DNA from: Octopus vulgaris
Lineage: Eukaryota
Direction: 5' to 3'
Length of the DNA: 64,000 nt
NCBI GenBank assembly: GCA_951406725.2
Contig: OX597820.1
Location: 70,122,001 to 70,186,000, forward strand
Shown here: in pieces, positions 28,930-54,987 of the stretch
How positions within the stretch are numbered: position 1 is the stretch's first letter
Layout: every line of letters starts with the position of its first letter
Made by a program: the position numbers and the translations under genes
The notes under the pieces: generated by a model
Seen by the model: the letters and a program-made list of their open reading frames with translations, nothing else
What the model was told of the DNA's origin: nothing
Databases searched by the model: none

Positions 28930-29021
28930 ATGAGCCAGTCAAATGAAGTGAATGAAATATTTCTGGGCACAAATTATCTATCATTAAAACCTAAATCGAC
29001 AAACGGGTTTATCAATAAAAG
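28930..29021 (+). CDS. bHLH-PAS (Met-like) gene, first coding exon (MSQSNEVNEIFLGTNYLSLKPKSTNGFINK+AG)
   Basis: Acceptor ttttcag ends at 28924; ATG at 28930; open frame to the strong donor AG|GTAAGA. The phase-2 end joins the bHLH exon to make Arg (AG+G). Confidence 0.7.
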
Positions 29022-31199
29022 GTAAGAAAATTCACATTTGGCTTCCACTCAATTTCTCTAGTCAAAACCAACACATCTATAAATCTACAATACAATTATT
29101 TAGCTTATATATGCTTGAGGAAATTTACCTCAAATAACAGCGCAACATTTTAAAATATGTGTAGGCACATTAATAAAAAACCAGCTTAGATAGATTTTAT
29201 CTGAAAATAAGATAGTGTGTTCACAGTTGGAGCATCTTTGACTATAAATCTGCTTCATAAGGGCTGACATAGAAGGATAAACAAAAACAAGTAAAATAAG
29301 ACAACAGAATAGATGATGCTCAGTTGCAAACAGGCTGAGGTCGGTGGCGTATATATATATATTTTTAAATATATAAATACAGAAGTTCATAAGCATGAAA
29401 GTTCAAATTAATTGCAAGCATCTTTGTTGTGTGTTTCGGCAATACTCTTCCTTCTAAATGACTTATTTCATTTAGTTACGTAGACCAGATTCCCAGTTTA
29501 CATGCAAGGTGGCGAGCTGGCAGAAACATTGGCACACCGGGCGAAATGCTTAGCGGTATTTCGTCTGCCGTTACGTGCTGAGTTCAAATTCCGCGTAAAG
29601 AAATATGTATTTCGTCTATCTTTATGTTCTGAGTTCAAGTTCCGCCGAGGTCGACTTTGTCTTTCATCCTTTCGGGGTCGATAAACTAAGTACCAGTTGT
29701 GTACTGGGTCAGGCTAATCGACTGGCCCCTCCCCAAATTTCGGGCCTTGTCCCTAGAGTAGAAAAGAATATTATATGCAATAACAAAGTCGGCGAACTGA
29801 CAGAGACGTTAGCACGCCGGGCAAAATGCTTAGCGGTATTTCGTCTGCGTTACGTTGTGAGTTCAAATTCCGTCGAGGTCGACTTTGCCTTTCATCCTTT
29901 CGTGGTCGATAAATTAAGTATCAGTTGCGTACTGGGATCGATCTAATCGAATAGCCCCCTCCGCAAAAATTTTGGGCCTTGTGCCTACAGTAGAAAAGAA
30001 TATCATATGAAATAACATAAGGTGAACCAGACAAATTGTTTGGTGGCGTTTCTTCGTGTTTTAGTTAATTACTTCGAATGCCGTCGCAGATGACTTTGCC
30101 TTCCATCCTTTCATGGTCAATAAAATAAACTACCTGGGGTCGTTGTAATGGACGTTCACACCATCACCACACCACAAAATTGTTGACCTTGTAACAAAAT
30201 TAGAAAGAAACATCATATGCGATATTCTGGAAATTTACTAACCAGAGACTTTTCCTTTTTTAGAATAGCGTTGTACCAAAATGAGGCAACGGCCCCGAGA
30301 AGCACTAAACTATTATTGAAATATGAAGAGAAAACGGAAACTTCGTGCAATACATGTGTGTGTGTGTGTGTGAGTGTGTGTATATATATATATATTGTAT
30401 ATACTCTTTATATATATATATATATATATATATATATATATATATATATATATATATATGTATATATATATATGTATATACTCTTTTACTCTTTTACTTG
30501 TTACAGTCATTTGACTGCAGTCATGCTGGAGCACTACTTTTAGTCGAGCAAATCGACCCTAGGACTTATTCTTTGTAAACCTAGTACTTATTCTATCGGT
30601 CTCTTTTGCAGAACCGCTAAGCTACAGGGACGTAAACACACCAGCATCTGTTGTCAAGTGATGTTGAGGGGACAAACACAGACACACAACCCCGCCCCCA
30701 CACACACACTTATATATATATATATATATACATATATATATATATATATATATATATATATATATATATATATATATATATATACATATATACGACGGGC
30801 TTCTTTCAGTTTCCGTGTACCAAATCCACTCACAAGGCTTTGGTCGGCCAGAAGCTATAGTAGAAGACACTTGCCCAAGGTGCCACGCAGTGGGACTGAA
30901 CATAGAACCATGTGGTTGGTAAGCAAGCTACTTACCACGCAGCCAATATATATATATATATATATATATATATATATATATATATATATATATATATATA
31001 TATATATATATATATATATATGCATATATATATTGAATCATTATTTCTAATTTATCATGAAATAAAACTGGTAGAAGCGGGTTAAGTCATAGAGGCAAAA
31101 TCTTGACTTCAAATTTTGGCATGCTAACGATTCTGACAACTCGCCGCCTCAAAGATATAAAATATCAAAATAATAGAACAGTAGTAACTTCTAGTGAAG

Positions 31200-31680
31200 T
31201 TTAGTGAGATGACAATCCTAATGTTTTGGAACAAGTCTTCGTCTTCGAGAGGTAAATCAGGAGGTTGTTGTATCCTAGCATATGTACTGTTTCTTTTAGT
31301 TTTCGTATTTTCCAGTGGTTTTCTCTGTGTATTATTTTAACTTCATCCCACAGGTGGAGGTGGTCTTCATTTTTCCATGCATGATCAGCTGTACCCGATC
31401 TATCAATATCTCCTCGTGTCACAGCTTTGCGATGTTCCTTTTCTCTTATTTTGAGGGGGCGGCATGTTTCGCCTTTGTAGCTGCATGGGATGAAGAACAC
31501 GCAGTTTTTGGTCATATTCTTTTCTATTGGTGGTTTGACCCGAAGGAGATATTTGCGAAGTGTTGTATTACTCTTGAATATCTCCTTCGGATAAAACCAC
31601 AAATAGAAGAAAATGGAACCAAAAATTGCGTGTACTCCATCCCATACAGCTGTGGTAGGTTATACAAAGGCAAAACAGTT
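31200..31680 (-). mobile_element. Penelope-like GIY-YIG fragment with a head-to-head inversion
   Basis: Minus ORF (KNCVFFIPCSYKGETCRPL..EHRK..SGTADHAW..RKLKE). The same segment appears on the + strand from about 31575 (YLLRIKPQIEENGTKNCVYSIPYSCGRLYKGKT). Confidence 0.8.
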
Positions 31681-32657
31681 GAGGGTTACAGTCTGCTCGT
31701 GAAATAAACGAGCAAGTGACTGAGCACTCCACAGAAACGCGTACCCTTAATATGACACAGAATGTAACTAGGTTAGTCCTTTGAAATACAGGTAGCAACT
31801 TAAAATAAAATGTCTTGCTCAGAGACACTTCGTGCTGCCGGGAATCGATCTCAACCATATGATTGTGAGCCGAATACCCTACACACTAAGCCGGGCGCCT
31901 TCTCTTAGCGAATATAGGGTTAAGGTAGAAAAAGTGCGGGGTGTTTAGGGAGGGTTAAGGCAGAGTTGAAGAGTGAAGAGTTTTGCGTGCATAGGATTAA
32001 GACAGAGAATCAGTGAGAGAATATATTTTAGGTTAATGGAAGGAACGGGATGTTTTGGCTTGTGAAATAGAAAGGAGCCTTAGAAATTCATTGTCGTTTT
32101 TTATGTTGTTTTTGTTCTTTGGCGCCAAGTTAATACTTGTCTGAGAAAACAAAGCAAGTCCTTCTAAGCAAGAGTCATTTTTTAAACAAAATTACAAAAA
32201 TGGTTATATAAACTATAATTATAAACTATATGAAAATATAAAAAGTAATAATGTATTTAAAATAATATCAAATAAAGTACAGCGAAGGCATGGCTGTATG
32301 GCGAAGACCAAGTTGTTCTGCGTTCACTCCTACTGCACGGCACTTTGGTAAAATTGTGATCCACCAGCATGACTGCAGCCTCGAGTCAGAAGCATATAAA
32401 AGAATAAAAGAATATAGCTTAGGGCCGCGCAGTGGCTTGTGAATGAATTTGGTGGACGGAAACAGTATAAAAAGCTTTATATATATATATATATATATAT
32501 ATATATATATATATGTAACAGAAGGTTTACGAAAATAAACAAAAGACGAAGGCAGGTGGAGTACAAACAAATAATGTATTAGTATGGCGCTCAAGCACAT
32601 AAATGTGAAACAAGTTGGAAAAATAGTACTCGAATACCGGAGGTATATGCTTTATTA

Positions 32658-53296: not shown

Positions 53297-53437
53297 ATAT
53301 AGCTCACCTACAAACCCACAAAGAGTTTACGATTCGATTGAACAAGAAAAATAAGTTCCATCCAACATCATACGAAACATTTCATGCCATGGGTCAAATT
53401 AAATATTGTAAAACTGAAAGGAAAATCGAAATGAAAG
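53297..53437 (+). CDS. bHLH-PAS (Met-like) gene, PAS-A exon 3 (D IAHLQTHKEFTIRLNKKNKFHPTSYETFHAMGQIKYCKTERKIEMK+G)
   Basis: Acceptor ttttctttttag and donor AAG|GTAAAT. F.IRL.........YE..H..G matches the C-terminal half of PAS-A. Confidence 0.88.
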
Positions 53438-54848
53438 GTAAATATTTTCAAAACCAGTGTACGAAAATGTGGCAATGTTAAATTAAAATAGGCGAGCTGG
53501 CAGAATCATTAGCACATCGGGCAAAATACTGAGCGGTATTTCGTCCTTTAGGTTCTGCATTCAAATTCCACCGAAGTCAATTTGTGCCTTTCATCATTTT
53601 GGGTTCGATAAAATACGTACCAGCTGAACACTCGAGGGTGTTGAAATTGACTTTCCTCTTTCCTTGAAATTACTGGCCTTGTACCAGAATTTGAAAGCAA
53701 TGAATTGCGTTAAAAACCTTTGGAAGGTAAAACGGTTTAAAAGTACCCGCATCTTCCGTATGTGGATTCAAGTCCAGCAGGTAGTCTTCGATCTTTTAAT
53801 ACCCCAAGGAGTTTTTTAAGCCAATATATTACGTACCATTATTAACCACTTTGAGACTCATCCTAAAAATATTTTCGTGATACGTTTTGTTAAGAAAGCA
53901 GTTCTTTATTTCATATTTAATCAGAAATTTTCTTTGTCATAATTAGTTCTGCGCGTTCATTTTGTTTTGCCCTCATGTCTGGTTTGATTGAGTTGAACAA
54001 TGATCGCAGACAGTCAGTCACTAAGTATCACATGCTTTCCCCTACCCAAAACTATAGTCTGTTCATCTCTTTAAGACAGAGTTATTTTTGGAGAGATTTG
54101 GTTGTTATTTCTTTCAGATCGAGCGACCACATAGAGACCCTCTCCTTGACTCGCCAGCATTTCATTAGATAATTTAACCTTTCTATACTCCATGGTTTTA
54201 TGCAAGGTCAACAGCTCGTGGCTTCTTCGTTCTTTCTGTAGTAGAATCATTGTTCAGCGCGTCTATTTATATTACTATCATAATTATTTATGTATGTATG
54301 TATGTATGTATGTGAAACAAAGAAGCTGAACGAAAATTCAAGGAGTGATAGATAAAATAGTTGGACTGATTTCAGAGTGAGATGATTGAATTTACAGGCA
54401 AAATATAATTACACAGTGCCAGCTTTATGAGTTGTGATTAGTTTACATTGGCAGTATTGCTCTTTAGGATGTAGTAATCGCCATTTATAGCTGATACTGT
54501 GAAATAGATGCTAGGAAATATCATGACTTTAAGTAGATATGTAATGGAAACTATAATAACGAAGTAATTCTTTTATAGAGAATATTGTCCAGTGCGGAAT
54601 TTCAGCAAAATGGAGAAGCGTCTCTCGACGGTAATTAGACGCCATTGTTTAGTAGCACATCCTCCATTCTTTACCGAGATCAAATTATCATTTAACAGTG
54701 AGAAATATGACAGCCAATGTAAATATCAATCATTCATCAATGTAAGTTATGTGAAATTAGTCTTAGTTTTATTATTGACTGTCTAGTATTAGTCACCAAC
54801 TATAATTATTACCATCTTTTTTATTATTATTATCCTTTTTACTGCCAG

Positions 54849-54987
54849 AGGAGACTTGGCTCATTGCCATTCTTAAACCCGTCCTTCAACCTCTTTATAA
54901 GGAAATATCTATATTTGCTGAGACAACGCAGATTCAATACATTAGCAGACACGACTTCAATGGCAGATTTCTTGATATTACATTAAG
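54849..54987 (+). CDS. bHLH-PAS (Met-like) gene, PAS-A end / PAS-B start exon (E ETWLIAILKPVLQPLYKEISIFAETTQIQYISRHDFNGRFLDITL+AG)
   Basis: Acceptor ccttttttactgccag and donor AAG|GTAGGT; phase 1 in. Y.SRH...GRF is the PAS-B start (compare Met EY.TRHL.DGRI and Clock EFTSRHSLEWKF). Confidence 0.88.

What the first reader, a model, noticed from the sequence alone, without database searches (positions are those of the whole stretch)
28930..54987. Hidden Methoprene-tolerant-like bHLH-PAS gene in a probable cephalopod
Seen: seven short exons (28930-29021, 34408-34565, 39728-39801, 43507-43596, 52189-52279, 53297-53437, 54849-54987) splice in phase into about 261 aa of bHLH + PAS-A + PAS-B start. 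Known: Met/Gce is the arthropod juvenile-hormone/methyl-farnesoate receptor and binds ligand in PAS-B. RRDKLN, VP.VA.S..R, KTSILRL, YE..H..G and Y..RH...GR are Met-like, whereas Clock has RRDQFN and SRHSLEWKF. Divergences here are LNKTS for the usual LDKT, and YISRH for Y.TRH at a pocket-lining position. Inference: a divergent Met-family sensor in a non-arthropod, possibly a lineage-specific paralog with an unknown small-molecule ligand.
Basis: partly seen in the sequence, partly recalled or inferred. Interest (0 to 1): 0.75.

Follow-up and report, generated by a model that had tools for sequence, protein, structure and literature searches.

The report
Octopus Met hormone-receptor gene, remodelled
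This is the octopus member of the Met gene family, whose insect members are juvenile-hormone receptors; databases already hold it under a wrong name, it carries an extra 14-residue loop and lacks the usual long tail, and it likely senses a small fat-soluble molecule whose identity is untested.

Summary
The gene is real and it is Met-family, but it is neither hidden nor a lineage-specific paralog. The seven exons splice in phase; four more (one at 60106-60147, three beyond the window) complete a 398-aa bHLH-PAS-A-PAS-B protein that differs at 2 positions from Octopus sinensis XP_029639012.2, misnamed 'HIF-1alpha-like'. Trees nest it in mollusc Met (98/95) inside the Met clade (98/97); AU tests reject Clock, cycle and HIF/SIM. 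Clock, cycle, HIF, Sim and other family-like loci lie elsewhere in the genome, and no second Met was found. Mollusc and annelid Met orthologs were published in 2014 and 2016. Two features it missed are cephalopod-specific in my sample: a transcribed 42-nt micro-exon inside the ancestral PAS-B intron (13-14 extra residues, 4 of 140 rows) and loss of the C-terminal tail (22-41 residues against 240-1022). The pocket keeps 6 of 11 Drosophila Gce residues; two changes equal mutations that lower JH binding. Likely a ligand-gated partner of NCOA; methyl farnesoate is unproven. Exons 5-8 are repeated across a scaffold gap, probably an assembly artefact.

The parts
28930..29021 (+). Coding exon 1 (ATG, residues 1-30); an AG acceptor lies a few bases upstream, so an untranslated 5' exon is likely
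34408..34565 (+). Exon 2: bHLH domain, basic region E-K-L-R-R kept
   Evidence: Pfam HLH E 8.7e-12; 100% identical to Octopus proteins
39728..39801 (+). Exon 3: bHLH to PAS-A linker
43507..43596 (+). Exon 4: start of PAS-A
52189..52279 (+). Exon 5: PAS-A, ends at a GC donor
   Evidence: same junction in XP_029639012.2
53297..53437 (+). Exon 6: end of PAS-A
   Evidence: joined to exon 7 in contigs
54849..54987 (+). Exon 7: PAS-A last strand, linker, PAS-B strands A and B; ends at the ancestral phase-2 intron
60106..60147 (+).
   Evidence: follows exon 7 in 4 of 4 runs
51499..61341 (+). First copy of a 9.8-kb tandem repeat holding exons 5-8; ends at the gap
61342..61441 (.). 100-N scaffold gap between the two copies
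61442..64000 (+). Start of the second copy (runs about 7.4 kb past the window end); exon 5 copy 62132-62222, exon 6 copy 63241-63381. Exons 9-11 follow beyond the window
   Evidence: 96.1% over 10,016 columns; 1 coding difference in 413 exon bases

Best explanation
This is the Octopus ortholog of Methoprene-tolerant (Met), a 398-aa bHLH-PAS-A-PAS-B transcription factor that likely pairs with the NCOA/Taiman protein of the same genome, likely binds E-box-type DNA, and is likely switched by a small lipophilic ligand in PAS-B that need not be juvenile hormone or methyl farnesoate. Shown: gene structure, splicing of exons 6-7-8, orthology, the micro-exon and the short tail. Predicted: intact PAS-B fold with the insert as a flexible surface loop between strand B and helix C. 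Inferred from arthropod Met: ligand gating, chaperone release, NCOA pairing; inferred from the missing tail: activation would come from the partner. Confidence is for the whole mechanism; orthology alone is about 0.95, methyl farnesoate as the ligand about 0.2.
For: Careful ML tree, 33 rows: cephalopod clade 100/100 inside conchiferan Met 98/95, Met clade with Platynereis Met and Haematobia Met 98/97 (same in 64 rows, and 140 rows). AU rejects joining Clock (p 0.0004), cycle (p 0.0002) and HIF/SIM (p 0.013). Best non-cephalopod hits among 1.84 billion representatives are mollusc members of that clade. A bivalve Met finds this locus first of 3 matches in the genome. Other family-like loci lie elsewhere, including a HIF-like and an NCOA-like locus. 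AlphaFold2: three domains at pLDDT about 90 or more, insert 264-272 under 50. Y246, H250, V288, F296, S337 and N357 match Gce pocket residues, and most other changes are to smaller residues. In Platynereis, methyl farnesoate is the brain hormone and met falls with its titre (PMC5127642, passages).
Against: No ligand binding by any non-arthropod Met appears in the passages I read. Only 6 of 15 insect pocket positions are identical, the same range as other non-arthropod Mets (2-7) and as two cnidarian Clock, two cycle-clade, one HIF and one SIM row (2-7), against 9-15 in the arthropod clade: the pocket does not itself mark a hormone receptor. T254 and C347 are invariant in 62 of 62 arthropod-clade rows and both are changed here. 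F256 equals I262F/I411F, which hindered JH III binding in Tribolium and Aedes (PMC9392760), and F323 equals Gce Y604F, which partly reduced it (10.1101/2024.01.03.574093). NCOA pairing and DNA binding were not tested. NCOA and named ARNT proteins were not in the trees.
Confidence: 0.5

Rival explanations
1. It is a ligand-independent, tail-less Met that acts as a repressor or sink: it dimerises with NCOA or cycle and occupies E-boxes without activating, as truncated bHLH-PAS proteins such as AhRR or IPAS do (recalled).
For: Tail after PAS-B is 22-41 residues in 4 of 4 cephalopod rows against 240-1022 in 19 of 19 other non-arthropod Mets; no tail-like exon was found by tblastn of 13 Met tails in the 214 kb examined. 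F256 matches the Clock, cycle and HIF rows. Long stem branch, 0.97.
Against: Some arthropod-clade rows also have short tails (126 in Ixodes; rows of 4-93 may be fragments). The pocket is not filled with bulky residues overall, and its residues are conserved between octopods and the distant unnamed relative. A longer isoform is not excluded: the O. bimaculoides record is named isoform X2.
Confidence: 0.25
2. It is a true methyl-farnesoate receptor working as in crustaceans, timing maturation in these once-breeding animals.
For: Orthology. MF is the Platynereis brain hormone and met is co-regulated (PMC5127642); MF changes pathway-gene expression in a snail (PMC8848322, passages). 6 of 11 Gce pocket residues kept, including the S618/N638 pair.
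Against: I262F-like and Y604F-like changes, C347 replaced. No paper reporting MF in a cephalopod came up. MF-synthesis genes were not looked for here.
Confidence: 0.2
3. It is a cephalopod-specific paralog, with the canonical Met elsewhere in the genome or lost.
For: About 31% identity to other mollusc Mets over the trimmed alignment; long stem branch; the genome searches are incomplete (the bHLH search missed the HIF and ARNT bHLH exons; the PAS_11 search missed this gene's own PAS-B).
Against: Nested where the species tree puts cephalopods. Only Met-like bHLH among 45 of 45 HLH matches plus the loci; 0 of 9 PAS-B loci Met-like; best hit of a bivalve Met.
Confidence: 0.04
4. It is HIF-1alpha, as the database names say.
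For: Names in NCBI and UniRef; best PDB sequence hit is HIF-1alpha, E 9e-28.
Against: No Met entry appears among the 50 PDB matches, so HIF wins by default; AU p 0.013; a HIF-like PAS-B exon lies at G000:C24:15.86 Mb; basic region is of the Met type; with 41 residues after PAS-B there is no room for HIF degradation and activation domains (recalled).
Confidence: 0.01

Closest known systems
Arthropod Met/Gce (juvenile hormone / methyl farnesoate receptor)
   Same: Orthologous clade; bHLH-PAS-A-PAS-B order; basic region E-K-x-R-R-D-K-L-N; 6 of 11 Gce pocket residues.
   Different: T254 to S, I262 to F, Y316 to F, L318 to S, C347 to A; 14-residue PAS-B insert; tail of 41 residues; ligand untested.
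Lophotrochozoan Met: Platynereis Met (APP91163.1), Lottia and Lymnaea Met; Haliotis, Patella, bivalve and chiton orthologs (often named Clock-, NPAS2- or cycle-like)
   Same: Nearest relatives, 29-32% identical; share S/T254, H301, F316, S330 and a small residue at 347.
   Different: None of the 19 non-arthropod rows has the insert or the short tail; L318 to S only in chiton; I262 to F in none.
Amphioxus bHLHPAS-orphan (AGX25231.1) and hemichordate relatives
   Same: Same Met clade (PMC4066832).
   Different: Long tails (410-1022), no insert.
Octopus 'HIF-1alpha-like' XP_029639012.2, XP_014788389.1, CAI9725818.1; Argonauta GAB1608461.1
   Same: The same gene: 2 differences in 398 aa from O. 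sinensis.
   Different: Misnamed. The O. vulgaris records split it: CAI9725818.1 fuses the upstream DUF229 gene to exons 1-3 and 5, CAI9725820.1 ('single-minded homolog 2') holds exons 9-10.

Membership tests
Met/Gce orthology group | [quoted passage not shown] | tested here: met
   Pfam HLH, PAS, PAS_3, PAS_11 over cut-off; AlphaFold2
Met/Gce orthology group | Groups with named Met proteins, apart from Clock, cycle and HIF/SIM | tested here: met
   98/97; AU p 0.0004, 0.0002, 0.013. NCOA and named ARNT not in the tree
Met/Gce orthology group | Best genomic match of known-clade Mets; no better candidate in the genome | tested here: met
   searches are incomplete, so a floor
Juvenile hormone receptor (functional class) | Arthropod pocket signature (Y252, T254, H256, I262, V280, F288, Y316, L318, T/S330, C347, N349) | tested here: not met
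   6 of 15 insect positions identical, 6 of 11 Gce positions; T254 and C347 invariant in 62 of 62 arthropod-clade rows, changed here. Tribolium numbers were laid on a beetle row by offset
Juvenile hormone receptor (functional class) | High-affinity binding of JH III or methyl farnesoate in PAS-B | not testable with these tools
   needs a binding assay
Juvenile hormone receptor (functional class) | Ligand-dependent pairing with Taiman/NCOA | not tested
   an NCOA-like locus exists (G000:C24:18.18-18.25 Mb; label recalled from motifs); no full NCOA protein was in hand
Clock/NPAS2 | Groups with Clock; RRDQFN basic-helix motif | tested here: not met
   AU p 0.0004; Clock is a separate locus on C16
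HIF-alpha | Groups with HIF/SIM; class I basic region; long tail with degradation and activation domains | tested here: not met
   AU p 0.013; separate HIF-like exon on C24
cycle/BMAL | Groups with cycle; HSEIEKRRRDKM motif | tested here: not met
   AU p 0.0002; separate locus at C7:112.5 Mb; label recalled from motif

The most novel reading that the evidence does not exclude
Cephalopods rebuilt Met into a different kind of sensor: a new micro-exon loop on PAS-B, a re-lined pocket and no activation tail, so that it reads a hormone other than juvenile hormone (for example an optic-gland lipid) and gates NCOA to time maturation and death after a single brood, with the frame-preserving micro-exon as a possible splice switch back to a canonical PAS-B.
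Probability: 0.12. Interest if true: 0.78.

Novelty: new variant of a known kind. Interest (0 to 1): 0.35.

Why it matters
Whether sesquiterpenoid signalling works outside arthropods is open; Platynereis, also a once-breeder, uses methyl farnesoate. Naming the octopus ortholog and giving its correct 11-exon model makes the question testable in a laboratory cephalopod and corrects database names that hide it as HIF-1alpha or SIM2. The micro-exon and lost tail are a natural experiment on what a Met needs. But the family is known in molluscs, the protein is already in databases, and nothing here shows a ligand or a function.

Tried and rejected
PDB sequence search and Foldseek gave only vertebrate-type bHLH-PAS structures (HIF, AHR, CLOCK, BMAL, ARNT, NPAS) and cannot assign the family. 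The ESM Atlas listed Clock, AhR, Met and BMAL clusters at near-equal scores 0.95-0.97. The word-index search with the full protein returned only the 4 cephalopod clusters of 2440 candidates. No RNA holder is on record as RNA; the wide read lay was swamped by repeats and its tables cut, so exons 4-5 were not seen. No exon-8-skipping form appeared in 4 runs, but contigs drop rare variants. Pseudogene rejected: open 398-aa frame, spliced contigs, 96% identity to O. bimaculoides. A true internal duplication of exons 5-8 judged unlikely: the copies meet exactly at a 100-N gap, transcripts and three other species' models carry one copy, and both exon-8 alleles occur in different runs; not tested with DNA reads. 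No complex prediction was sent: no full NCOA was in hand. Earlier findings of this scan: nothing. DOI 10.1016/j.jmb.2023.168332 (review of insect bHLH-PAS evolution, recalled) is not held and may already list cephalopod Met. Supplements of the papers read were not opened.
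Full report
Observation. Acceptors are AG and donors GT, except a GC donor after exon 5. Exon 2 is a bHLH domain (Pfam E 8.7e-12). A search with exon 2 returned 4 proteins of 7 candidates: Octopus vulgaris and O. sinensis 'hypoxia-inducible factor 1-alpha-like' (100% identical), an Argonauta protein (94%) and an unnamed Logan protein, P0004 (78%), whose taxon I did not establish; the O. 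sinensis cluster also holds O. bimaculoides. The organism is thus an Octopus and the gene is not hidden. Laying the 398-aa O. sinensis protein on the window and 150 kb beyond it gave four more exons, one inside the window at 60106-60147. The 11-exon model gives 398 residues and a stop, with 2 differences from XP_029639012.2.

Transcripts. No run is on record as RNA, but contigs from runs guessed to be RNA skip introns. Exon 6 joins exon 7 in 2 of 4 runs listed (tables cut) and 3 of 4 (the fourth contig starts inside exon 7). In 4 of 4 runs, from 4 studies and 3 organism labels, the letters behind exon 7 are the start of exon 8. The other junctions were not seen directly and rest on agreement with database models.

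Assembly. Window 51499-61341, holding exons 5-8, is repeated directly after a 100-N gap: 96.1% identity overall, 1 difference in 413 coding bases. Two runs carry one exon-8 allele and two the other. I infer an unmerged haplotype overlap (about 80%); DNA depth was not checked. The O. vulgaris records split the gene: one fuses the upstream DUF229 gene to exons 1-3 and 5 and reads through the GC donor, another holds exons 9-10 as 'single-minded homolog 2'.

Family. A scan of 1.84 billion representatives gave 1944 hits, best 150 listed. From 155 proteins I dropped 15 (non-bHLH, fragments, near-duplicates) for a FastTree of 140 rows: the cephalopod rows fell in a clade (1.0) with Platynereis 'methoprene-tolerant protein', Haematobia 'methoprene-tolerant' and the cluster of the amphioxus bHLHPAS-orphan. 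Bilaterian Clock rows were added from a search with the genome's own Clock exon. In 64 chosen rows the Met clade had SH-aLRT 98. In 33 chosen rows (careful mode) the cephalopods (100/100) nested with bivalves and gastropods (98/95), chiton next (81/67), then Lineus and Platynereis (92/97), within Met (98/97). AU tests rejected cephalopods with Clock (p 0.0004), with HIF/SIM (p 0.013) and with cycle (p 0.0002). NCOA and named ARNT proteins were not in any tree. Only 11 of the 19 non-arthropod and 3 of the 62 arthropod-clade rows were named by look-up; the rest are labelled by tree position.

Ortholog or paralog. A bivalve Met finds this locus first of 3 matches in the genome (stricter first look). 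Of 45 HLH matches, all fetched, plus the loci, this exon scored highest on a Met/Clock bHLH profile (82 bits); the next were cycle-, Clock-, AhR-, Sim-, Trh- and NCOA-like exons. Nine PAS-B loci were Clock-, NCOA-, ARNT-, cycle-, HIF-, NPAS4-, Sim-, Per- and Trh-like, 0 of 9 Met-like. Labels other than Clock come from unnamed tree rows or recalled motifs. Both searches miss genes (no HIF or ARNT bHLH exon; not this gene's own PAS-B), so a second Met is unlikely, not excluded.

What is known. PMC4066832 (abstract and passages) grouped the amphioxus orphan, Capitella and Lottia proteins with insect Met. PMC5127642 (passages) named Platynereis met, found orthologs in Lottia and Lymnaea, and identified methyl farnesoate as the annelid brain hormone; PMC6350857 (passages) adds a syllid ortholog; PMC8848322 (passages) shows an MF response in a snail. 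Searches listed no paper whose title or abstract concerns a cephalopod Met; most subscription papers are not held, one relevant review could not be read, and supplements were not opened.

N67 occurs in 1 of 19 non-arthropod and 1 of 62 arthropod-clade Mets; S248 (insect T254) in 8 of 19 non-arthropod Mets. Neither marks this gene out.

What is distinctive. First, a 13-14 residue insert between PAS-B strand B and helix C in 4 of 4 cephalopod rows; 132 of 140 rows have the standard length, 1 is one shorter, 2 are fragments there and 1 HIF-clade row has a different 20-residue insert. In Octopus it is exactly exon 8, 42 nt, phase 2 at both ends. Clock and cycle in the same genome have a phase-2 intron at the matching D-H-R site, so the micro-exon sits in an ancestral intron and skipping it would restore the standard length (inference). 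AlphaFold2 (103-row alignment, mean pLDDT 80.8, pTM 0.56) folds the three domains confidently and leaves residues 264-272 under 50; this is not the A-B lid loop that 10.1101/2024.01.03.574093 (section 6 read) places at the ligand gate. The insert keeps its length but little sequence across the four rows. Second, the tail after PAS-B is 41, 41, 39 and 22 residues against 240-1022 in 19 other non-arthropod Mets; arthropod-clade rows range from 4 to 748, the shortest possibly fragments. No tail-like exon was found downstream, though tails are poorly conserved and a longer isoform is not excluded.

Pocket. Using positions from PMC9392760, PMC6333893 (passages) and the bioRxiv paper, laid on a beetle row that fits 15 of 15, the octopus keeps 6 of 15; other non-arthropod Mets keep 2-7, arthropod-clade rows 9-15, and six non-Met rows 2-7. 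Against the Gce list it keeps 6 of 11: Y246, H250, V288, F296, S337, N357. F256 equals the I262F and I411F mutations that hindered JH III binding, F323 equals Gce Y604F, and C347, invariant in 62 of 62 arthropod-clade rows, is S in 19 of 19 other non-arthropods and A here; the distant relative P0004 has V rather than F at 256. Summed side-chain volume is not larger than in insects. A cavity is therefore plausible, but the insect binding mode is not conserved.

Mechanism. Shown: a spliced, full-core Met ortholog with an E-K-L-R-R basic region. Inferred from arthropod Met: ligand in PAS-B, release from HSP90, pairing with NCOA/Taiman, binding to E-box-type elements; with almost no tail, activation would come from the partner. 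I put this at 0.5, a ligand-free repressor or sink at 0.25, a true MF receptor at 0.2 (a special case set apart), a paralog at 0.04 and HIF at 0.01.

Verdict. The gene is the expected mollusc Met ortholog, already in databases under wrong names. The micro-exon and the lost tail make it a variant that my searches did not find described. Interest 0.35.

Noticed in passing
window 5987-7953 (+): A single-exon DUF229 (sulfatase-like) gene in two ORFs covering Pfam positions 24-299 and 324-495; the stretch from about 7101 to 7190 appears, read by eye, to continue in a third frame, so two frameshifts lie close together: sequencing errors or a pseudogene.
   Followed up: partly
window 51499-61341 and 61442 onward: 9.8-kb tandem copy of exons 5-8 across a 100-N gap; probably a false duplication that breaks automatic annotation.
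   Followed up: partly
window 52279-52281: GC-AG intron after exon 5; the O. vulgaris record reads through it to a stop, and the Argonauta model lacks exons 4 and 6.
   Followed up: partly
P0010, P0013, P0016, P0018, P0019, P0036, P0038, P0128: Many Met-clade proteins of molluscs, a nemertean, a beetle, ticks and amphioxus are named Clock-, NPAS2-, cycle- or ARNTL-like in NCBI, which hides the family's range.
   Followed up: partly
G000:C3:159335210-159335335 (L076): A PAS-B exon that looks like Period (label recalled from motif; best hits here were Clock rows at about 38 bits).
   Followed up: no
window 26301-28057, 41518-42132, 44885-45751, 32865-33191: Transposon remains in the introns and upstream: an inverted pair of about 560 bp, inverted copies of a retroelement-like 3' end, and a mariner-like fragment (labels recalled, not searched).
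   Followed up: no
window 60501-61572: Long degenerate trinucleotide repeat giving open frames of 200-330 codons on both strands; not a gene by any test made.
   Followed up: no
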